From a virus (taxonomy: Duplodnaviria > Heunggongvirae > Uroviricota > Caudoviricetes): 39,374 bases of DNA. Positions 2,057-39,374 of the stretch are shown here, in pieces. Under the pieces are notes generated by a model. The model was not told the origin of the DNA, did not search any database, and saw only the letters and a list, made by a program, of their open reading frames with translations. Where the stretch lies: positions 1-39,374 of IMG/VR virus record IMGVR_UViG_3300029009_000036. The stretch is one strand, 5' to 3'. How positions within the stretch are numbered: position 1 is the first letter of the stretch; every line of letters starts with the position of its first letter. The translations under genes were made by a program, and so were the position numbers.

Positions 2057-2752
2057 ATGAAAAAGGAAATACTCAAGGCTCTTTGCCCTACATGCGGTGG
2101 GTTACGTAACTGCACTGTGCATGGGAAGCTAACCACTAGCTGGGAGGATTCCCAATATCCAGTTTATGGGTACCATTACCATCACCTACTCCAATGCAAT
2201 GGCTGTGATACTGTCTTCTATCACCACAACGAACACTTCAGTGAGCATACTACCCACGAATATCGTGATGGTGAATTTGTAGAAACGCCTATAGATATGA
2301 TCACTACCTATCCTGCCGCTGAAACATTTCAAGCTCCGATATGGTTATCCAAGCTTGAATCAGTTGATCGTCAGCTCTTTCAAATATTTAATGAAATGTA
2401 TTCTTCATATACTTCTGACCATTTCATTCTTTCGTCCATCGGTTTACGGACGATTTTTGATCGAACTGCTGAACTGTTACAAATTCACCCCGGTTTGCCG
2501 CTTGGTGAAAAAGTTGAAAAATTAAAACAAGATGGAGTCATAGGCGACACTGAGGCATGCGTTATATCTTCAGTAATTGATGCAGGAAACGCCGCCGCAC
2601 ATCGCAGTTGGAGCCCGAATAAAAGTGAGTTCGAACAAATGCTAGAAGCTATAGAAAGTTTTGTCCAAAGAACTATCTTGGGCAAAAAATCACTTGAACA
2701 TATAACCAAACAACTCCCACCTCGGGTTACAAGACCTAAAAATAGTGCATAA
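2057..2752 (+). CDS. Hypothetical cargo protein: N-terminal Cys4 zinc ribbon plus C-terminal helical domain with GNAAAH motif (DUF4145/HEPN-like, unverified)
   Basis: 231 aa; CPTCGG...CNGC pair of CxxC motifs; C-terminal ...VIDAGNAAAHRSW... resembles the R/N..AH signature I associate with DUF4145/HEPN-type domains; lower GC than flanking phage genes. Confidence 0.6.
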   Translation: MKKEILKALCPTCGGLRNCTVHGKLTTSWEDSQYPVYGYHYHHLLQCNGCDTVFYHHNEHFSEHTTHEYRDGEFVETPIDMITTYPAAETFQAPIWLSKLESVDRQLFQIFNEMYSSYTSDHFILSSIGLRTIFDRTAELLQIHPGLPLGEKVEKLKQDGVIGDTEACVISSVIDAGNAAAHRSWSPNKSEFEQMLEAIESFVQRTILGKKSLEHITKQLPPRVTRPKNSA

Positions 2753-2778
2753 TCCGCGATCATCAATGTGGCGTAAGG

Positions 2779-3335
2779 CTATGGTTTACTTGCTACAGGG
2801 AATTTTTTATACACCGTTGAAATATCCAGATCATAAATCAGTGCGACTTGCTGCTGATATATTCCCGATTCAATCAACCTGCCAGCCTGCCCCCATTGTT
2901 CTACTGTCAGCTTTGGCTTTCGCCCACCGTTCCTCCCTTCTTGTCGTGCTGCGGCAAAGCCGCCCTAGTACGTTCGACAATAAACTCTCGCTCCATTTCA
3001 GCCAGGGCACCCATCACATGAAAGAAAAAGCGCCCCATTGGTGTGCTGGTATCAATAGCATCCGTCAGGCTGCGAAAATTAACGCCACGTTCGCGCAACT
3101 CTTCCACCAGCACGACAAGATGCCGCATACTGCGCCCCAGTCGGTCCAGTTTCCAGACCACCAGCGTGTCACCTGCCGATAATGTCCTGAGCAGCTTTTT
3201 CAGTCCTGGTCTGTCGGACTTTGTACCGCTTATCTTGTCTTCAAAAATCAGCTCACATCCTGCACAGTTCAACGCATTACGTTGTAGATCGGTGTTCTGG
3301 TCATTTGTTGATACGCGAACATAGCCAATAAGCAT
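2779..3335 (-). pseudogene. pin: Pin/Gin/Hin-family serine DNA invertase, frameshifted between catalytic and HTH domains
   Basis: ATG at 3335 with AGGAGG RBS; MLIGYVRVSTNDQNTDLQRNAL...LVVWKLDRLGRSMRHL is a canonical invertase catalytic domain; frame breaks near 2962-2968 (...VERTRAALPQHDKKGG...stop at 2907) while a shifted frame continues GGFAAARQEGRNGGKRPKLTVEQWGQAGRLIESGIYQQQVALIYDLDISTVYKKFPVASKP (HTH domain) to 2779. Confidence 0.75.
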
Positions 3336-3390
3336 GATAGCTCCTCCTGACAAAAACAGGAACGATGCCATTTGCGCGCTATTTCTGCAT

Positions 3391-3416
3391 TTTCATAAAC
3401 GTTGGTTTGGGAGAAG
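3391..3416. repeat. Invertase crossover site, left (gix/pix-like)
   Basis: tttcataaacgttggtttgggagaag; its reverse complement cttctcccaaaccaacgtttatgaaa matches 5224-5249 over ~20 bp; AAACC-NN-GGTTT core typical of gix/hix sites. Confidence 0.6.
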
Positions 3417-3754
3417 CGGCAAAAAGGAATGTGGGGACAGGGGCGAATCAGATACCTGATATGGGTAGCTTCACGCTTTCTGTTTCAGGTACTGGATATC
3501 AAAAATTACCATCTGGTTTTATTCTTCAGTGGGGCTCAATCGGCGCTCCAGGCATTGCACAGGATGTGGTAACCCATTTCCCGATTGCATTTCCGAACAG
3601 ATGTCTGCGTGTTTTGGTCTCACAAGACTACACACCAGATAGCGGGGCTGTTGGTTATATTGCCTGTGCAGGTTTTAGTCCCGACCCGGTTAAATTTATA
3701 TCCAGAGCCAGTACTCCAGGTCTCGGCGCTTCATTTTTAGCGTTAGGCTGTTAA
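3402..3754 (+). other. Alternative tail-fibre C-terminal coding segment (silent orientation, no own start)
   Basis: Open frame encoding ...[23 protein letters not shown]..., a tail-fibre C-terminal-like sequence, beginning at the left crossover site and followed by its own tfa gene. Confidence 0.5.
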
Positions 3755-3775
3755 TTTAGCTATATGGAATGAGAA

Positions 3776-4216
3776 ATGAATTATATATATTCCGCGACTA
3801 CAAACTCTTTCTATCCGTTAGAGATGAAAGAGGATTACACTCAAGCTGACTCATGGCCAGATGATGCTGTTGAAGTTGACGAGCAGGTGTATATTGAGTT
3901 TTCCGGATTACCGCCGAAAGGAAAAATCCGTATCGCTGGAGAAAATGGTTTTCCTGCATGGTCTGAAATTCCACCACCAACACATGAGGAACAGATTGCT
4001 GCAGCCGAACTGGAAAAGCAGCAATTGATTAATCAGGCCAACGATTATATGAACAGTAAACAATGGCCTGGTAAAGCGGCTATTGGTCGTCTGAAAGGTG
4101 AGGAACTGGCGCAATATAATTTGTGGCTGGATTATCTGGACGCACTGGAACTGGTTGATTCCTCCAGTGCTCCAGATATTGAATGGCCTACGCCTCCGGC
4201 AGTTCAGGCCAGATGA
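3776..4216 (+). CDS. Tail fibre assembly protein (alternative copy, Tfa family)
   Basis: 146 aa; C-terminus ...LWLDYLDALELVDSSSAPDIEWPTPP shares the conserved Tfa C-terminal motif with the convergent 4188-4781 gene. Confidence 0.8.
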   Translation: MNYIYSATTNSFYPLEMKEDYTQADSWPDDAVEVDEQVYIEFSGLPPKGKIRIAGENGFPAWSEIPPPTHEEQIAAAELEKQQLINQANDYMNSKQWPGKAAIGRLKGEELAQYNLWLDYLDALELVDSSSAPDIEWPTPPAVQAR

Positions 4217-4781
4217 CGTCCGGCGCGGTGCTGGTATCTGTTGCCGTCACCGCGTCAATGTAATCCAGCACGGCGTTAAGTCGGGTTGTTTCTGCCTGAG
4301 TCAGTTTCCGTCCGGCCTGTAATTTCAGCTGAATCAGACTAATGGAAGCCATTGCTGCATCAATCAGTGACTGGCGCTGTGCTTCTGCCGCGTCTACTGC
4401 GGCACTGTGTTGTGCCTCAGTGTCTGTCACCCATTTCTCACCATCCCATTTATCGTATGGCGTTAACGGTGAAATCGTGACATAACCGTCTTTGATGGCA
4501 CCGATATAATCCACTGTAGCAGCAGCACCATTTTCGATTGAGTAAACGGTCTCATTGCGATGGTCTTCTTCATGGCTCCATCCCTTACCTGTAAATACTG
4601 CCACTCTTCCCGGAATGTTTTCGCCAAGGTCAATACCAGTGGAATAGGCGGGCATACTTACGCCAGTATTAATATATTCATCAGACCAGCCCGTATACTC
4701 AGATGTTTCAGCATCATAATAAAAACAACGCATATCGCCCGGCACTGTAGCCAGCCCATTTTCATCAAAAACAGGTTTCAT
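4188..4781 (-). CDS. Tail fibre assembly protein (Tfa family, expressed orientation)
   Basis: 197 aa; ATG at 4781 overlaps tail-fibre stop (TAATG); C-terminus ...AVLDYIDAVTATDTSTAPDVIWPELPEA. Confidence 0.85.
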   Translation of the reverse strand: MKPVFDENGLATVPGDMRCFYYDAETSEYTGWSDEYINTGVSMPAYSTGIDLGENIPGRVAVFTGKGWSHEEDHRNETVYSIENGAAATVDYIGAIKDGYVTISPLTPYDKWDGEKWVTDTEAQHSAAVDAAEAQRQSLIDAAMASISLIQLKLQAGRKLTQAETTRLNAVLDYIDAVTATDTSTAPDVIWPELPEA

Positions 4782-5527
4782 TATTTAGCCCTCACCAGAA
4801 AGTTAAATGCAATATTTCGCGGTCTGACTGCAACAAAATTCACACCATCACCCACAGAGTTACTGGTGAAATTAAATCGTGAAAATCCTGGCTGATTTCC
4901 GGCGATGCCATCATGAAAGTTAATTGCGTGTCCCGCACCTTCGCCTATATTCCCGGCAAACTGAGAAAAGTTTGTAGCGTTCTGCCAGCTTAATAATTCG
5001 CGACCACCGTCTACACCTCGCCCGTCATCCCAGACACGAATGAAATCACCGCGTGCGTCAGGTAATGCCAGCGCCGGAAACACTTTCGCCAGCACAGGGT
5101 AATCAGTGGCAGAAAATTTCGCCCCGTTGAACTTCAAAAACACCATACTGGACCAGCTGTCGATTACAGTATTTGGCATTGCAGCGGACGGCCAGAAGAA
5201 CGGAACGCCAATAGCTGGAGCACCTTCTCCCAAACCAAGGTTTTCGAGAGCTGTTTTCACCGTGCCGTCCGATTTGATATCGCCAAACGGATTCTTGCGG
5301 CTTAACAGCAGCGCACGAAGCGCGGTAAGCAGCTGGTCGTGCCGCGCCTTCTCCAGACTGGCACCGGATGCCTCAACAACGCTACAAAGTTCTTCCTGCA
5401 ACATGTCAAAGTAGTCATCATCCAGATCGGTGGCAGGCGTGCCAGTCTGGGGGTTACCACGGGTAAAACCGTTCTTACCCGCGCCGAACTTATCCTTCTG
5501 CGCGGTTTTCGTGTCTATACGATGCAT
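4781..5527 (-). CDS. Side tail fibre protein (constant N-terminus outside, variable C-terminus inside the invertible segment)
   Basis: 248 aa, ATG at 5527; right crossover site lies at codon ~97; resembles e14-type short tail fibres from memory. Confidence 0.8.
5224..5249. repeat. Invertase crossover site, right (gix/pix-like), inside tail-fibre gene
   Basis: cttctcccaaaccaaggttttcgaga; inverted relative to 3391-3416; the two sites bracket ~1.84 kb. Confidence 0.6.
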
Positions 5528-5530
5528 GGA

Positions 5531-6115
5531 TTACTCCGGATATTTAAAAATTACGTAGGTATGCGACGGGCAGAGTTTGTTAAGCACACACTCGACAACG
5601 GTGTCACCCCAGATACGCAGCGCGGAATCACAGGGATCGCCACATGTCATCCAGGTGGTGTTGGTGGCGGCTGGCATGTTGATCTGCCAGTAATACCGCC
5701 ATTCCGGCGCATTCACCGCGTCAGTACAGGCCGATGAGCAGGTGAACGTGCTTTTATCGTATCGCGTGATAGTGGCGTCTGGTCTGCCCAGGGCAGCAAG
5801 CTGTGCAAGGTAAAAATCCTCATTGATGCCGCCCGCCAGATTAACCTTCGCATCCAGCCGTTGCTGACGCTGGCGAAGGGTCTGTGTCCCTGCGGGAATA
5901 CATTCATCCGGCAGACCGCACAGACGCTCCCAGCGATTTATCAGTTCGGTGGTGGTGCGCGGATCCAGCTCCCGCATCAGGGCATCCGCACGCTGATGAA
6001 TGCGGGTTAATGACGGTGCCGCACCGGCAATCGCCGGATCGCTGGCTGACCACGCCGGACCGGGGGGCAACAGTGCCGACAACAGACGGATGTAATCATC
6101 GTTTGTCACGTCCAT
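5531..6115 (-). CDS. Phage tail protein, YmfQ / Mu gp48-like
   Basis: 194 aa, ATG at 6115; position between baseplate J and tail fibre; size and sequence recall E. coli e14 YmfQ. Confidence 0.75.
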
Positions 6116-7164
6116 GAAATCGTCCCCAGTACCGCCAGTTCATTTTTTGCAATGGAGATATTGTCTGCCGGTGCAAGCAACTGATGGCTGTATTCCCCGT
6201 TCGCACCGGAAATCGCCTCACTGATACGCGACACCTTCAGTTCTCCCTGCGGATAACCATCACGCAGCAGGAACGAACGCAACTCGGCGGTGATGGCAGC
6301 CCGTATTTCCGGTGTGTCCGGCGTCACGCGGATATGAAAATCCACTTTATGCGCCACCGGCCTGAATACATACAAATCAGAGCCTGCCACCGGGGCCAGT
6401 GGCTCAATGTGTTGTCTTGCCGCCGTTTCCGTTGATTCTTCCGGAATGGGATTAATCAGGTCACTGCTGGCAATCATCACACCGACAGTTCCCGTTCCCA
6501 TCCAGTGACGGTATGTCCATGCGCGGGTAATGCCGGGCACTTCTTTAGCCCAGACAACATAGTCCCCGTCAGCCCCGCCCTGAGGCGTCCAGTAATACCG
6601 CTCAATGACGCGGGCGCGCCACGTTTCCAGATCTTCAGTATCGAATCCGCCAGTCAGGGTATCTGCAACACCGGAAGACGGCAGACCATTCACCGGCGTG
6701 ACCAGGATTAATGCCGTACCGTCGTCAGCGTTACCGACCGCGCCTGCACTTGAGCAGGCGATCGGCACGCGCAGGACACCACCGGAGCTGGTTGCATCAG
6801 CAGTTGCCGTGTACTGCACCAGGTCATCGCGCTGAATCACGCTCCCGGCGGTCACCTTCAGGCCATCGCTGACACCTTCCCAGCGCATATACCCGCTGGC
6901 AGCCGTGGCCCCCTTGCGCGGACACCGTTTCATCGCAGCATGTCGCGCCAGCCAGGACTCATCGCACAGGTCAGGCAGCATGTTCATTGCCAGATAATCG
7001 ATGTAACCGTAAACCGTATGCAGCGCCGCCGCATACACCTTTGCCCGCACGTCTTCATCCATGCGCCGGAGCGTGTCGCTGACGTCCAGCCTGGCGAATA
7101 AATCGTTACGGAGCATACTGATATTTTCTGCCAGCGTCGGGCGCTGAAATTCACTGTCCGCCAT
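6106..7164 (-). CDS. Baseplate J-like protein (Mu gp47 / P2 gpJ family)
   Basis: 352 aa, ATG at 7164; conserved position in Mu-like baseplate module. Confidence 0.8.
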
Positions 7165-35082: not shown

Positions 35083-35907
35083 ATGTCTCAGAACTTAGAC
35101 GCAACCGCAATTAATCAAATCCATGCCCTTATTTCTGCTCAGGGTGTTAATGAAATTATCAGTAAGATTGGTGCCGATGCTGTGGCATTGCCTGAGAATT
35201 TCCGCATTCATGATCTGGAAAAATTTAATTTAAATCGCTTCCGTTTCCGTGGTGCGCTTTCCACTGCCAGCATCGATGACTTTACCCGTTATTCTAAAGA
35301 TCTTGCAGATGAAGGCACCCGCTGCTTTATCGATGCCGATAATATGCGAGCAGTCAGTGTGCTTAACCTGGGTACTATTGATGAACCAGGTCACGCAGAT
35401 AACACCGCCACTCTCAAACTGAAAAAGACAGCACCGTTCTCTGCCCTGTTGTCTGTTAACGGCGAGCGTAACTCCCAGAAGTCACTGGCAGAATGGATTG
35501 AAGACTGGGCCGACTACCTTGTGGGCTTTGATGCTAATGGTGACGCTATTCAGGCAACAAAAGCGGCTGCGGCGGTCCGTAAAATCACAATTGAAGCGAA
35601 CCAGACTGCTGATTTTGAAGACAATGACTTCAGCGGCAAACGCTCCCTGATGGAGTCTGTCGAAGCGAAGACCAAAGACATTATGCCAGTGGCATTTGAA
35701 TTTAAATGCGTTCCGTTTGAAGGCCTGAAAGAACGTCCATTTAAATTACGACTCAGCATTATCACTGGTGATCGCCCTGTACTGGTTCTGCGCATTATTC
35801 AGCTGGAAGCAGTGCAGGAAGAAATGGCTAACGAATTTCGTGATCTGCTTGTTGAAAAATTCAAAGACAGCAAAGTAGAAACCTTTATTGGTACTTTCAC
35901 CGCCTGA
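35083..35907 (+). CDS. DUF2303-family protein (YfdQ-like)
   Basis: 274 aa, ATG at 35083 with GTGAGGA RBS; size and sequence recall CPS-53 YfdQ. Confidence 0.75.
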
Positions 35908-36083
35908 TTTCATTACTGCAAATGCCCCTGCGGGGGCGTTTACGGAAGCGATAATTTTAACTATTGCCGCCCCTATAAAGAACCATTAAACGATAACGTG
36001 ACGTAGCTATTGATAGTAAATGAAGCACTTGCAAAATAATTGCATTGCGTATATATACGCACATGTGTTGTATTACAGCGATA

Positions 36084-36878
36084 ATGGTAAAGCAAATGAT
36101 TAACTCTGAAGCAATTGAGCAACTAATGTGGTTATGGTCCTTATTTGACATTAAATTCTTATCTATTTTTGCCGCAGGCTTCACTATATATTTTGGCGTA
36201 CAAAAAATATCAAAAAAGGTGACAGTATCGTATTCAGCAAATGTAAGTAAAATATATGACATGCATATATCAACCATAATCCTGACTAATAAAAGAGATA
36301 ATGCAATTGCTATATCTTCAATCAATATGGAGGTTGAAGGGAAAGGGATACTACAAGTTATTAAATTTGACTCCCCTCTTCTTCTAAAGAACTATGATTC
36401 TTTAAAAGTTGAACTACCAAAATTTAGCAGCCTTTATAATAATGATGGCATAGTTAAGTTAGATATTTCTGATAAGTTTCATTTTTATATAATCACGACA
36501 TCTGGAGATGAAATCAAATGTATTTCTGAAAATAAACACGTGGCACCAAATATGAAAAACAAAATAATTCCAGACATAATAAAATTTAATGGCATTGTCT
36601 TAACAAACAGAATGTCTTATATTTTTTTCTATGCAAATGACAACGGAGAGAAATACTGCATAATAGATGCTTCATTGTCCATAAATGGCGACAACCCATT
36701 TCATTTTCATGTTCTTAAAGAAGATAAATTAAGAGATTTTTCTAGCATCCTTATTGGTTACGGATATCACCAACGGTTTAAAAGTTATGCATTATTTAAA
36801 ATAGACAACCATCTTGCTCCTTCTTTGGTTTTAAATAAATCAATGATAGAAAATAATATTATTGAAATGAATAAGTAA
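36084..36878 (+). CDS. AT-rich cargo gene: membrane-anchored protein of unknown function
   Basis: Start uncertain (ATG 36063, 36084 or 36096; track start 36045 is TTG); N-terminal TM helix LMWLWSLFDIKFLSIFAAGFTIYFGV then ~230-aa Asn/Lys/Ile-rich soluble domain; candidate promoter TTGCAA-N17-TATATA just upstream (hexamer positions approximate). Confidence 0.6.
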   Translation: MVKQMINSEAIEQLMWLWSLFDIKFLSIFAAGFTIYFGVQKISKKVTVSYSANVSKIYDMHISTIILTNKRDNAIAISSINMEVEGKGILQVIKFDSPLLLKNYDSLKVELPKFSSLYNNDGIVKLDISDKFHFYIITTSGDEIKCISENKHVAPNMKNKIIPDIIKFNGIVLTNRMSYIFFYANDNGEKYCIIDASLSINGDNPFHFHVLKEDKLRDFSSILIGYGYHQRFKSYALFKIDNHLAPSLVLNKSMIENNIIEMNK

Positions 36879-36914
36879 CTCACCGGGTGCAGCCGGTTAT
36901 GATGGAGAAATGAT

Positions 36915-37187
36915 ATGAATACCTTGTTTTTACTGATGGCTGAATTCAATACCCTAAACATTGAACTCTCAGCAGTTAGTCAAAAATACTTTGGTATGAG
37001 TCCAGCCACGGCAGAAGCAAAAGCAAACGCTTGTAAGTTGCCCGTTCCAACATATCGCATCGGCACATCACAAAAAGCAAAACGTTGCATCAATATTCAG
37101 GATCTTGCGGAATACATAGACAAAAGGCGAGAAGAAGGGCGTGCTGAGTGGGAAAGGGTCAGAACCCATAAACAAAGGCTCATTTAA
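36915..37187 (+). CDS. Excisionase-like winged-helix DNA-binding protein (PrtN/AlpA-like, unverified)
   Basis: 90 aa, ATG at 36915 with GGAGAAA RBS; MNTLFLLMAEF... recalls PrtN-family proteins; attR-proximal position opposite int mirrors torI in KplE1. Confidence 0.55.
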   Translation: MNTLFLLMAEFNTLNIELSAVSQKYFGMSPATAEAKANACKLPVPTYRIGTSQKAKRCINIQDLAEYIDKRREEGRAEWERVRTHKQRLI

Positions 37188-37194
37188 ATAGAAT

Positions 37195-37228
37195 ATGAAT
37201 AAACCCATCCAAAGGTGGGTTTATTCAT
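37195..37228. terminator. Perfect 13-bp hairpin between convergent genes
   Basis: atgaataaaccca / tgggtttattcat with 8-nt loop tccaaagg; U-rich tract on minus strand; overlaps stop of the 37221-37682 gene. Confidence 0.65.
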
Positions 37229-37682
37229 AATGTTGAAGAGCAGCGAGTATCAGTTTTTTATGCCGTTTAACCATGATTTTAGATATCTCAACTGCACATC
37301 GAACTTGTCTCATACAATGATCTGTAATGCGACCTTTTAGCACGTCGCCATATTGGATGGCTATTTTCTCTTTAATAATTTCAAGATCGAAAGCAGCATG
37401 AGCCTCAATGCAATTAACAAATGAGTCCCATTTAAGAAAATCATGGTCCTCTCTATTAATTTCGACCTGACAAGCCATAAGATCATTGTTTCTCTTAATA
37501 AATTCATTTATATCTGAATTTATTAGAAGAACTAAAAGAGGTTCACAGCAAACAACCACCATATATTTTACTTTAGGTGGGGTCGTAAAATCACAATGAA
37601 GATACAATACATCACCGGGTGATATACCTCTTTCACGACTAAAATTAGCCTTAAAATCAGGAGGGAAACAATCACCCAGCAT
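37221..37682 (-). CDS. Uncharacterised partner protein of Panacea-domain gene (candidate toxin/effector)
   Basis: 153 aa from ATG 37682 (TTG 37691 alternative); starts 6 nt after Panacea-gene stop; AT-rich; no domain recognised. Confidence 0.6.
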   Translation of the reverse strand: MLGDCFPPDFKANFSRERGISPGDVLYLHCDFTTPPKVKYMVVVCCEPLLVLLINSDINEFIKRNNDLMACQVEINREDHDFLKWDSFVNCIEAHAAFDLEIIKEKIAIQYGDVLKGRITDHCMRQVRCAVEISKIMVKRHKKLILAALQHYE

Positions 37683-37687
37683 AAGTA

Positions 37688-38269
37688 TCAATATCCGTTC
37701 TTCAGATAATCCAGTATTAATTTGCTATTTTTTAGCTGTGCAACTATCGATTCCAAAGACATCTCACCATTGTGATCTGCCTGTTCCCATGCCGCGTCAT
37801 GGCTCATGGTTCTGATAGCTTCAAAGGACATGTTTCCAAGCATCGCGATAGACTTATCAATACACTCTAAATCTGAGTCACTAAAAAAGTCTTCATCAGC
37901 TTCACGGCTCGGCACAATCATCATACCTGATACAGAAAATGCTTTTCGCACAGAATCGACATCACAACCATTAGGAATGTAACGTCCATCTCCACGAGCA
38001 ATTTTTATAATATCGTATGTGTTGCTTGCTACAGGCCCATCCTTCATAGCGTTATAGTGATCGCCCGTTATGAGGCGTCCAAAACTTTCAAGGTGAAACC
38101 TGTCAGCATAATAAAGAATTTTTCCGACATGATAGATATCTGGGATCGGTGCTTTAGAGGCGACGTACAGAATGGCCTCTAAAGCCTTTTCTGAATCAAA
38201 CCTTACATTTAGCATCAATACACCCTTCATCCAAACAACATCGTCAAGCTCTGGCAAATGCAACCGCAT
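37688..38269 (-). CDS. Panacea-domain (DUF4065, SocA-like) protein, candidate antitoxin
   Basis: 193 aa, ATG at 38269 with AGGAGG RBS; core ...KILYYADRFHLESFGRLITGDHYNAMKDGPVASNTYDIIK... fits the K.LYYA....G.P......A...GPV...Y pattern I associate with DUF4065. Confidence 0.65.
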   Translation of the reverse strand: MRLHLPELDDVVWMKGVLMLNVRFDSEKALEAILYVASKAPIPDIYHVGKILYYADRFHLESFGRLITGDHYNAMKDGPVASNTYDIIKIARGDGRYIPNGCDVDSVRKAFSVSGMMIVPSREADEDFFSDSDLECIDKSIAMLGNMSFEAIRTMSHDAAWEQADHNGEMSLESIVAQLKNSKLILDYLKNGY

Positions 38270-38390
38270 CCGCCTCCTGCAATCTTAAAGTCTTCACCTA
38301 CGCTAGGTCAATTGAAGTGATGAGCAAATGATGCTTTCTAAGAATAACAGGTTCCCAATAGGCTCCCACAAAGTGTATAACTACTTGTTT

Positions 38391-38472
38391 TTCAAAAACG
38401 GTACATCCTATCGAGCATCGGGGCAATCGAGAAACGGTAAGCGGGATAAACAGTGTGTGATTCTGCTGGCAT
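38391..38472 (-). pseudogene. dusA: Displaced original 5' end of dusA (remnant at attR)
   Basis: Minus-strand ATG 38472: [21 protein letters not shown] then diverges to a stop; ...RFSIAPMLD matches the restored dusA copy at the left end. Confidence 0.6.
38411..38427. other. attR core candidate
   Basis: tcgagcatcggggcaat, direct repeat of 109-125. Confidence 0.5.
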
Positions 38473-38627
38473 GGCGACTTTTTAAGCATCTGGTAAATTG
38501 GGGGCGCTACTATAGCATAACGAATATGCGATCAGGCAATGTGACAGCCATGACACCCTGTTCTCGGCGTTTAAGTGAGAACTATGATAAAGTAAGGACA
38601 TTCTTAACCCCACTGTCGAGGTGCCCA

Positions 38628-39143
38628 ATGGAAAAGACCACAACGCAGGAGTTATTAGCGCAGGCTGAAAAAATCTGCGCACAGCGTAATGTGCGCCTGA
38701 CCCCACAGCGCCTCGAAGTGTTGCGCCTGATGAGTCTGCAGGATGGCGCTATCAGCGCTTATGATCTGCTTGATTTGCTGCGCGAAGCTGAACCGCAAGC
38801 CAAGCCGCCAACGGTTTATCGCGCGCTGGAGTTTCTGCTTGAACAAGGTTTTGTGCATAAGGTGGAATCCACCAACAGTTATGTGCTCTGTCATCTGTTC
38901 GATCAGCCCACCCATACTTCAGCCATGTTTATTTGCGATCGCTGCGGCGCGGTGAAAGAAGAATGTGCTGAAGGCGTGGAAGACATCATGCATACGCTGG
39001 CGGCAAAAATGGGTTTTGCCCTGCGGCATAATGTTATTGAAGCACATGGATTATGTTCAGCATGTGTAGAAGTAGAAGCGTGTCGTCATCCTGAACAGTG
39101 CCATCATGACCACTCTATTCAGGTGAAAAAGAAACCTCGCTAA
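38628..39143 (+). CDS. zur: Zinc uptake regulator Zur (Fur family)
   Basis: 171 aa from ATG 38628: MEKTTTQELLAQAEKICAQRNVRLTPQRLEVLRLMSLQDGAISAYDLLDLLREAEPQAKPPTVYRALEFL...; ORF-track extension upstream has no support. Confidence 0.9.
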   Translation: MEKTTTQELLAQAEKICAQRNVRLTPQRLEVLRLMSLQDGAISAYDLLDLLREAEPQAKPPTVYRALEFLLEQGFVHKVESTNSYVLCHLFDQPTHTSAMFICDRCGAVKEECAEGVEDIMHTLAAKMGFALRHNVIEAHGLCSACVEVEACRHPEQCHHDHSIQVKKKPR

Positions 39144-39184
39144 AAGGGTGTACATCCTTGTACATGTCGGGCAGGAGGGATTAA

Positions 39185-39374
39185 TTACCAGCGGTAATCA
39201 TGGCGTTTTTCCCAACTATCAACCTCTTTTTCTGCCTGATCTTTCTGATAACCGTAGCGTTCCTGGATTTTACCCACTAACTGATCACGTTTTCCTTCAA
39301 TGATCGTCATATCATCATCGGTCAGTTTGCCCCATTGCTCTTTCACTTTACCTTTAAACTGTTTCCAGTTACCG
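39185..39374 (-). CDS. yjbJ: YjbJ (CsbD-like stress protein), 3' part; start lies beyond window
   Basis: Minus-strand translation ...GNWKQFKGKVKEQWGKLTDDDMTIIEGKRDQLVGKIQERYGYQKDQAEKEVDSWEKRHDYRW-stop. Confidence 0.8.
   Translation of the reverse strand, partial: GNWKQFKGKVKEQWGKLTDDDMTIIEGKRDQLVGKIQERYGYQKDQAEKEVDSWEKRHDYRW

What the first reader, a model, noticed from the sequence alone, without database searches (positions are those of the whole stretch)
2779..5249. Invertible tail-fibre switch with a frameshifted pin invertase
Inverted sites at 3391-3416 and 5224-5249 bracket ~1.84 kb holding two convergent tfa genes and an alternative fibre C-terminus, like the e14 P / Mu G / P1 C segments. 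The invertase reading frame breaks between catalytic and HTH domains, with the HTH readable in another frame to 2779. If real, the switch is locked unless a host invertase acts in trans; a sequencing error or programmed frameshift cannot be excluded.
Basis: partly seen in the sequence, partly recalled or inferred. Interest (0 to 1): 0.55.

Follow-up and report, generated by a model that had tools for sequence, protein, structure and literature searches.

The report
Tail-fibre inversion switch, broken invertase gene
This is an ordinary e14/Mu-type invertible tail-fibre (host-range) switch in an E. coli prophage whose own invertase gene is truly broken by a one-base deletion, yet comparison of near-identical genomes shows the segment still flips, most likely through an invertase encoded elsewhere in the cell.

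Summary
The window is a complete SfV-like prophage lying between dusA and zur of an E. coli-type chromosome.

- **Sites and segment:** two 26-bp crossover sites (3390-3415 and 5225-5250) are letter-for-letter those of the e14 P segment. They bracket 1835 bp holding two tail-to-tail tfa genes and an alternative fibre C-terminus.
- **Switch is coherent:** inverting the segment in silico gives an in-frame 213-aa fibre.
- **Invertase gene:** the Pin/Gin-type gene (3335->2779, minus strand) has lost one G from GGGCGGGC at 2960-2961. This separates the catalytic domain from the HTH domain.
- **Not a sequencing error:** the same deletion is in 20 of the 34 complete E. coli genomes that carry this pin lineage, where the carriers I fetched are annotated "frameshifted". 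It is also in 8 IMG/VR contigs.
- **Not a lock:** two otherwise identical genomes (40,242 bp, 0 differences), both with the deletion, differ only by an exact inversion between the site centres. Carriers overall split about evenly between the two orientations.
- **Programmed frameshifting is unlikely:** there is no slippery sequence and no stimulatory RNA structure.

The most likely mechanism is trans action by a co-resident Pin-family invertase, which has published precedent. This was not shown for this host. The finding is a known kind of system and of low novelty.

The parts
2779..3335 (-). Pin/Gin-type serine invertase pseudogene. It would encode 185 aa if one G were restored.
   Evidence: Translations. 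Pfam Resolvase 5e-49 and HTH_7 1e-9. The repaired protein is 155/185 identical to e14 PinE and matches Mu Gin 3UJ3 at E=2e-90. The homologous gene in the 14 E. coli carrier loci I fetched (L001, L003-L014, L024) is annotated 'frameshifted'.
2960..2961 (-). Site of the 1-nt deletion. GGGCGGGC became GGGCGGC on the coding strand, and GG remains where the intact allele has GGG.
   Evidence: Alignment with the intact UTAK-14 allele and 13 carriers. The deletion turns the imperfect hairpin GCGGGC-TTT-GCCGC into the perfect GCGGC-TTT-GCCGC (read from the sequence; that hairpin appears in the fold).
2907..3335 (-). Reading frame left after the deletion: catalytic domain (about 125 aa) plus 17 missense residues, ending at TGA 2907-2909.
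2779..2964 (-). Stranded HTH (DNA-binding) domain in the -1 frame, open down to TAG 2779-2781. It has no ATG of its own.
3251..3314 (-). Candidate recombinational enhancer inside the 5' end of the invertase gene: two G-N13-C 15-mers at gene nt 22-36 and 71-85. This is inferred, not shown.
   Evidence: The first 180 nt of the gene are 169/180 identical to e14 pinE. Placing the enhancer here rests on my knowledge of hin, gin and cin.
3390..3415 (.). Left 26-bp crossover site, next to the invertase gene. Central dinucleotide TT at 3402-3403.
   Evidence: Identical to the pinE-proximal site of K-12 e14.
5225..5250 (.). Right 26-bp crossover site, inside the fibre gene. Central dinucleotide AA at 5237-5238.
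   Evidence: Identical to the stfP site of K-12 e14. Similarity to phages SfIV, SfII, SfI and SfV stops at 5224.
3403..5237 (.). Invertible segment, 1835 bp.
   Evidence: The homologous 1755-bp segment is exactly inverted between E. coli 20KM0223N and MEI148-20EC.
3365..3754 (+). Unfused alternative fibre C-terminus (Gp53-like_C), counterpart of e14 stfE. Its ATG lies 25 nt outside the segment.
   Evidence: Pfam 4e-15. After in-silico inversion it joins the fibre N-terminus in frame, giving a 213-aa protein. The leader is conserved with e14.
3776..4216 (+). Tail fibre assembly gene (146 aa), partner of the unfused C-terminus.
   Evidence: Caudo_TAP 2e-37.
4188..4781 (-). Tail fibre assembly gene (197 aa), partner of the currently expressed C-terminus.
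   Evidence: Caudo_TAP 2e-27.
4781..5527 (-). Tail fibre gene as now configured (248 aa). The two predicted forms share residues 1-101; residues from about 97 on are encoded inside the segment.
   Evidence: Weak Collar match.

Best explanation
This is a Din-family (Pin/Gin/Cin/Hin) invertible tail-fibre segment, the direct counterpart of the e14 P segment. It sits at the left end of a complete SfV-like prophage integrated at dusA.

How it works: recombination between the two 26-bp sites flips 1835 bp. The constant fibre N-terminus is then joined either to a collar-type C-terminus with its 197-aa assembly protein (the state in the window) or to a gp53-like C-terminus with its 146-aa assembly protein.

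The adjacent invertase gene is a true pseudogene. One G was lost, probably by a template-switch event that made a small imperfect hairpin perfect. The catalytic domain is therefore translated without its DNA-binding domain.

The cis-acting parts of the switch are intact: both sites, and the 5' part of the gene where the enhancer of this family lies. The segment can therefore still be inverted by a compatible serine invertase made elsewhere in the cell.

Shown here: the anatomy, the reality and spread of the deletion, and that precise inversion happened in a lineage that already had the deletion. Inferred: that the enzyme acts in trans, which enzyme it is, and that the host of this window has one.
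For: Anatomy:
- Sites, domains and cassettes are as described.
- In-silico inversion gives an in-frame 213-aa fibre.
- Sites are identical to e14, gene order is identical, and the repaired protein is 155/185 identical to PinE. It also matches Mu Gin at 2e-90.

The deletion is real and widespread:
- It is identical in 13 aligned E. coli loci; all 14 carrier loci I fetched, CT29 included, are annotated 'frameshifted'.
- In the 242-nt search, 20 records have the query's length and 15 have one base more.
- It is present in 8 IMG/VR contigs.

Inversion happened after the deletion:
- 20KM0223N and MEI148-20EC are identical over 40,242 bp once the 1755-bp segment is turned back, and both are frameshifted.
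- A variant base in the inner half-site moved with the segment while the outer half-sites stayed in place. That is the pattern expected of exchange at the central dinucleotide.
- Carriers with both sites present split 10:9 between the two orientations.

Trans action is plausible:
- Those two genomes hold further pin-like places.
- PinQ of prophage Qin inverts the e14 P segment, which has the same sites (PMC12529663).
- Kutsukake et al. [quoted passage not shown]
- The window itself has no other serine recombinase.
Against: - The acting enzyme was not identified.
- In the clonal pair, one of the two extra pin-like places is only a remnant of about 125 nt. The third place was not located.
- The host genome of this window is unknown, so in this particular cell the switch could be locked.
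- The enhancer is placed by homology and from memory of hin/gin. My two candidate Fis 15-mers are 49 nt apart, not the 48 nt I recall.
- The two clonal assemblies also differ in their second prophage in a way that could reflect assembly polishing, so assembly quality is not beyond question. An exact inversion at the site centres is nevertheless hard to produce as an artefact.
Confidence: 0.78

Rival explanations
1. Locked switch. In the host of this window no compatible invertase is made, so the fibre is frozen in the collar-type form and the pseudogene, sites and silent cassette are simply decaying.
For: - There is no other serine recombinase in the 39-kb window.
- Some carriers show further decay. 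CT29 has lost the gene's 5' end and part of the segment, and 873.10 has lost both sites.
- Among carriers with a single megablast-detectable pin place, most have the same orientation class. This is only a weak trend, and the genomes are not independent samples.
Against: - In the window both sites are intact and identical to working e14 sites, and both cassettes and both tfa genes are open.
- Inversion demonstrably occurred in another carrier lineage.
- Distant invertases such as PinQ, reported as 38% identical to PinE, act on these sites and would not be found by the DNA searches used here.
Confidence: 0.15
2. The gene still yields full-length invertase by programmed -1 ribosomal frameshifting or a similar recoding event, so the switch remains autonomous.
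For: - The deletion allele is the majority allele of this lineage (20 of 34 genomes).
- The HTH frame is still open in every carrier aligned.
- The segment flips in carriers.
Against: - The shift would have to occur between the TAG in the HTH frame (overlapping ACT AGG) and the GGRKPK arm. No X XXY YYZ heptamer or homopolymer run exists there (sequence).
- The downstream RNA folds no better than shuffled sequence (z = +0.70).
- The part of the gene after the deletion is almost invariant among carriers (1-2 variable columns). The allele is therefore young, and an open HTH frame says nothing about selection.
- One carrier has also lost its start codon (ATG to ATA, L012) and others have large deletions.
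Confidence: 0.03
3. The deletion toggles. It lies in a short G run within a quasi-palindrome, so rare reversion restores the invertase for a time, making the enzyme itself phase-variable.
For: - The deletion lies in GGG/GG within GCGG(G)C-TTT-GCCGC.
- Both alleles circulate in closely related prophages.
Against: - A run of 2-3 G is far too short for frequent slippage.
- Template switching at a quasi-palindrome favours the perfect hairpin, which is the deleted form, not the reverse.
- Intact and deleted alleles also differ at other linked positions (columns 445 and 490), so they look like separate lineages rather than a toggling site.
- The clonal pair with opposite orientations has the deletion in both members.
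Confidence: 0.03
4. Sequencing or assembly error: the gene is intact in the real genome.
For: A single-base loss in a G run is a typical error type.
Against: The identical deletion is present in 20 complete genomes from different laboratories and in 8 IMG/VR contigs. The carriers I fetched are annotated as frameshifted.
Confidence: 0.01

Closest known systems
e14 P segment with pinE (E. coli K-12 cryptic prophage e14; Plasterk & van de Putte 1985; Mehta et al. 2004)
   Same: - Both 26-bp sites are identical.
- Gene order is the same: ymfQ, fibre, tfa, tfa (opposite strand), unfused fibre C-terminus with its own ATG 25 nt outside the site, then pin.
- The two tfa genes overlap by 29 nt in both elements.
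- The catalytic domain is about 97% identical.
   Different: - Here the prophage looks complete and sits at dusA, not icd.
- The HTH domain is only about 60% identical to that of PinE.
- The cassettes differ in sequence.
- The invertase gene carries a 1-nt deletion, whereas pinE of K-12 is intact.
Mu G segment / Gin and P1 C segment / Cin
   Same: - Serine invertase next to a segment that swaps fibre C-termini together with their assembly genes.
- 26-bp sites with a 2-bp core.
- The repaired protein aligns end to end with Gin structures 3UJ3 and 4M6F.
   Different: - The segment is shorter: 1.8 kb against about 3 kb (Mu) and 4.2 kb (P1), sizes from my own knowledge.
- The fibre is short, at 213 or 248 aa.
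- The invertase is inactive.
Trans-acting prophage invertases: PinQ of Qin acting on e14 (Kirigo et al. 2025, PMC12529663); Fin of Fels-2 acting on the Salmonella H segment (Kutsukake et al. 2006)
   Same: An invertase encoded in one prophage flips a segment in another element. PinQ acts on sites identical to those in the window.
   Different: - In those cases the target's own invertase is intact. Here trans action would be the only route.
- It is inferred here from a clonal pair of genomes, not demonstrated by genetics.
SfV / SfII / SfIV / SfI Shigella serotype-converting phages
   Same: Head and tail genes are 97-98% identical, up to the fibre's constant N-terminus.
   Different: Similarity ends at 5224, the outer edge of the right site. 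The matched stretches of those phages include no part of the segment or the invertase gene.

Membership tests
Din-family invertible tail-fibre segment (Pin/Gin/Cin/Hin type) | Adjacent gene homologous to small serine invertases (resolvase catalytic domain with the active-site serine, plus a C-terminal HTH) | tested here: met
   Resolvase 5e-49 and HTH_7 1e-9. Ser at residue 9 in YVRVST, aligned over residues 1-181 with Gin 3UJ3. 155/185 identical to PinE.
Din-family invertible tail-fibre segment (Pin/Gin/Cin/Hin type) | The invertase reading frame is intact, so the system is autonomous | tested here: not met
   A 1-nt deletion at 2960-2961 leads to a stop at 2907-2909, 17 codons later.
Din-family invertible tail-fibre segment (Pin/Gin/Cin/Hin type) | Two 26-bp crossover sites in inverted orientation with a 2-bp central core | tested here: met
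   Sites at 3390-3415 and 5225-5250, core TT/AA, identical to the e14 sites. 0 chance matches in 100 shuffles.
Din-family invertible tail-fibre segment (Pin/Gin/Cin/Hin type) | The segment carries alternative fibre C-termini with cognate assembly genes, and both orientations give an in-frame fibre | tested here: met
   Pfam domains. 248-aa and 213-aa fibres that share 101 N-terminal residues.
Din-family invertible tail-fibre segment (Pin/Gin/Cin/Hin type) | Fis-dependent recombinational enhancer in cis, within the 5' part of the invertase gene | tested here: inconclusive
   169/180 nt identical to the 5' end of e14 pinE. Two G-N13-C 15-mers lie 49 nt apart. There is no binding data, and the site positions are recalled from hin/gin.
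Din-family invertible tail-fibre segment (Pin/Gin/Cin/Hin type) | The segment is actually found in both orientations, with exchange at the site core | tested here: met
   Shown for the same allele family, not for this window itself. The clonal pair 20KM0223N / MEI148-20EC differs by an exact inversion, with the inner half-site variant carried along. Orientations split 10:9 among carriers.
Programmed -1 ribosomal frameshift gene | Slippery heptamer (X XXY YYZ) or homopolymer at the frame junction | tested here: not met
   The junction reads ACU AGG GCG GCU UUG CCG, with no such motif between the TAG of the HTH frame and the GGRKPK arm.
Programmed -1 ribosomal frameshift gene | Stimulatory RNA structure downstream of the shift site | tested here: not met
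   Fold of 2975->2860: -24.7 kcal/mol, z = +0.70 against shuffles.
Programmed -1 ribosomal frameshift gene | Both frames kept open by selection across diverged relatives | tested here: inconclusive
   The HTH frame is open in all carriers, but that part of the gene has only 1-2 variable columns among them, so the test has no power.

The most novel reading that the evidence does not exclude
The deletion allele is not mere decay. It is the majority allele of this pin lineage (20 of 34 genomes), and its segment still flips. The prophage may therefore have handed inversion over to invertases of co-resident prophages. What remains of the gene may be kept for a reason: as the cis enhancer, or because the truncated 142-aa catalytic-domain protein modulates other Pin enzymes by forming mixed dimers. 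In the clonal pair a second prophage keeps only the first 125 nt or so of its pin gene, which fits an 'enhancer-only remnant' reading.
Probability: 0.08. Interest if true: 0.45.

Novelty: new member of a known kind. Interest (0 to 1): 0.22.

Why it matters
It matters modestly. The result shows that a tail-fibre switch with a dead invertase gene should not be scored as locked. Host-range (or, following PMC12529663, phage-defence) variation from such "orphan" segments depends on which other invertases the cell carries. This bears on predicting prophage host range and on annotating invertons.

It also gives a ready natural test case: a clonal pair of genomes that differ only in the orientation of the segment. 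It does not reveal a new kind of system.

Tried and rejected
- **Source genome.** No complete E. coli RefSeq genome matches the whole 2700-5600 region (best 84% coverage at 95%). CT29 matches the 242-nt stretch 2779-3020 (the 3' part of the invertase gene, including the frameshift site) at 100% but has a degraded locus. The source stays unknown. I did not use the genome contigs or metagenome scans because they would not change the verdict.
- **Selection on the stranded HTH.** I tried to test this from substitutions among carriers. There are too few variable columns after the deletion.
- **Orientation versus number of pin-like places per genome.** Single-place genomes are mostly one orientation. 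The sample is small and not independent, LWY6 is a likely exception, and distant invertases are invisible to megablast. I draw no conclusion.
- **Locating the other pin-like genes of the clonal pair by walking the chromosome.** I found a second SfV-like prophage at icd whose pin is only a 144-bp remnant. The third place could not be located, because the search tool reports one place per record.
- **Second candidate inverted pair (L016/L021).** The segments are only 92% identical and the flanks differ, so they are not clonal.
- **Downstream RNA structure as a frameshift stimulator.** None found. A 13-nt perfect inverted repeat in the gene is present in intact and deleted alleles alike, so it is not tied to the frameshift.
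- **NCBIfam.** No specific family for the fibre, the tfa genes or the invertase.
Full report
**Context.** The window is a whole prophage in an E. coli-type chromosome.
- It starts inside dusA, with the integrase at 301-1398. In related E. coli genomes the same integrase follows dusA directly.
- It ends at zur, which every complete E. coli genome matches.
- Its head and tail genes are 97-98% identical to the Shigella phages SfIV, SfII, SfI and SfV and to Escherichia phage vB_EcoM-720R4. That similarity stops at 5224.

**Observation.**
- The inverted repeat is real: arms 3397-3416 / 5224-5243, 95% complementary.
No match to the site turns up in 100 shuffles of the window at up to 3 mismatches.
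- The central dinucleotides are at 3402-3403 and 5237-5238, so the segment is 3403-5237, 1835 bp.
- Inside it are two convergent Caudo_TAP genes, 3776-4216 (+) and 4188-4781 (-), overlapping by 29 nt, and a Gp53-like_C fibre end in ORF 3365-3754 (+).
- The expressed fibre gene runs 5527->4781 (-) across the right site.
- Turning the segment in silico gives an in-frame 213-aa fibre that shares 101 N-terminal residues with the present 248-aa form. Its stop lies just upstream of the 146-aa tfa gene. The switch is therefore structurally coherent in both states.

**The invertase.**
- On the minus strand from 3335, the Resolvase domain reads to a TGA at 2907-2909. The HTH_7 domain is in the -1 frame and is open to TAG at 2779-2781.
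- Alignment with the intact 185-aa allele of E. coli UTAK-14 places the lesion exactly. One G is missing from GGGCGGGC, at window 2960-2961.
- With the G restored, the protein is 155/185 identical to e14 PinE (about 97% in the catalytic domain, about 60% in the HTH). It aligns over residues 1-181 with Mu Gin structures (E=2e-90).
- The deletion turns the imperfect hairpin GCGGGC-TTT-GCCGC into the perfect GCGGC-TTT-GCCGC (sequence; the hairpin is visible). From established knowledge of quasi-palindrome mutagenesis, I infer a template-switch origin.

**Not an error.**
- The same deletion is in all 13 related E. coli loci I aligned. All 14 carrier loci I fetched, CT29 included, are annotated "recombinase family protein, frameshifted".
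- A 242-nt query across the lesion finds this pin lineage in 35 records (34 genomes) of 5,426 complete genomes. Twenty records have the query's length and 15 have one base more, as in UTAK-14.
- An exact 39-mer spanning the deletion also occurs in 8 IMG/VR contigs.

**Not a lock.**
- E. coli 20KM0223N (dog) and MEI148-20EC (soil), both from Switzerland, both carry the deletion.
- Over 40,242 bp (17 kb of chromosome plus 23 kb of prophage) they differ only by the 1755-bp segment. Once it is turned back there are 0 differences.
- One inner half-site has a variant base (TTCTCCA...). It sits at the right site in one genome and at the left site in the other, while the outer half-sites stay put. This is what exchange at the central dinucleotide by a serine invertase predicts. 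RecA-type recombination across about 13 bp of identity is much less likely to produce it.
- Among the 19 carriers with both sites present (one pair may be the same genome), 10 have the orientation of the window and 9 the opposite. Every pairwise comparison aligned in one orientation only, so the cassettes fall into two families in a fixed relative order.

**Who does the inversion?**
- The window has no other serine recombinase (phmmer against all stop-to-stop pieces).
- The clonal pair has two more pin-like places per chromosome. One is in a second SfV-like prophage at icd, where pin is cut down to about the first 125 nt. The other overlaps the end of the catalytic domain, but I could not locate it.
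- Published work shows that PinQ of prophage Qin inverts the e14 P segment (PMC12529663), whose sites are identical to those here. [quoted passage not shown]
- e14 inversion in ordinary cultures is documented in PMC4272514. That paper's reference list also holds Kutsukake et al. [quoted passage not shown]
- From my own knowledge, Gin, Cin, Pin and Hin complement one another.
- Trans action is therefore the most likely route. It remains an inference.

**Recoding.**
- To give a working enzyme, the ribosome would have to slip -1 between the TAG of the HTH frame (within ACT AGG) and the GGRKPK arm. The stretch ACU AGG GCG GCU UUG CCG has no slippery heptamer or homopolymer.
- The downstream RNA is no more structured than shuffled sequence (z = +0.70).
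- The HTH frame is open in all carriers, but that region is nearly invariant among them, so this carries no weight.
- One carrier has also lost the start codon (L012). CT29 and 873.10 show larger deletions. This looks like a pseudogene decaying.

**Comparison with known systems and verdict.**
- In mechanism and membership this is an e14-P / Mu-G / P1-C type switch. All the cis features tested are met.
- The one family feature not met is an intact invertase frame. The enhancer is only inferred: 169/180 nt identity to pinE's 5' end, and two G-N13-C 15-mers 49 nt apart.
- I could find no publication on this particular dusA-prophage allele in two literature searches. The RefSeq annotation of the carriers I fetched already flags the frameshift.
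- I rate it a new member of a known kind, of low interest. The useful addition is that the orphaned switch still flips.

Noticed in passing
window 2057-2752: A DUF4145 gene lies between the dinI-like gene and the invertase. Its protein (WP_001514810.1) is identical in all 14 fetched carrier loci and in UTAK-14, which has the intact pin allele. The same slot next to pin holds mcrA in K-12 e14 and a DUF262 gene in the icd prophage of MEI148-20EC. This looks like a cargo or defence-gene slot at the prophage end.
   Followed up: partly
window 5224: Similarity to phages SfIV, SfII, SfI, SfV and vB_EcoM-720R4 stops at the outer edge of the right crossover site. The constant/variable boundary of the fibre therefore coincides with the site even for phages whose matched stretches include no part of the segment or the invertase gene.
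   Followed up: no
L029 (NZ_CM149554.1 2757000-2779000) and L030 (NZ_CP151045.1 1908500-1920500): Both clonal genomes carry a second SfV-like prophage at icd with its own fibre segment. Its pin is cut to about the first 125 nt, the part where the enhancer of this family lies, and is followed by a DUF262 gene.
   Followed up: partly
L029 versus L030: In the icd prophage, the fibre, the short tfa and several baseplate proteins differ between the two otherwise clonal genomes. In 20KM0223N the fibre, the short tfa and baseplate protein V are the same proteins as in its dusA prophage. This is either gene conversion between co-resident prophages or an assembly-polishing artefact.
   Followed up: no
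window 2939-2951 and 3108-3120: A perfect 13-nt inverted repeat lies within the invertase gene, with its 3' arm about 10 nt downstream of the deletion. It is present in both intact and deleted alleles of this lineage, and its 3' arm is absent from e14 pinE. Its meaning is unknown and it may be chance.
   Followed up: partly
window 3365-3402: The unfused fibre C-terminus has its own ATG 25 nt outside the segment, as e14 stfE does. PMC12529663 reports that the equivalent e14 chimera (StfE2) is made and blocks phage T2 adsorption, so this ORF may not be silent.
   Followed up: no
L024 (E. coli CT29) and L010 (E. coli 873.10): Further decay of the same allele. CT29 has lost the gene's 5' end, with a ClpP-like gene inserted and the segment partly deleted. 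873.10 has lost both crossover sites.
   Followed up: partly
window 35500-39374 compared with 2779-3020: The right arm of the prophage is 99.9% identical to strains T309.Ta3, AVS0790 and AVS0196, whose pin allele is one base longer (presumed intact). The window is therefore a mosaic of a left arm carrying the deletion and a right arm shared with carriers of the presumed-intact allele.
   Followed up: no
L002 (E. coli UTAK-14) 5993-6739: The 248-aa fibre gene homologous to window 4781-5527 is annotated 'integrase' in RefSeq. This looks like a misannotation.
   Followed up: no
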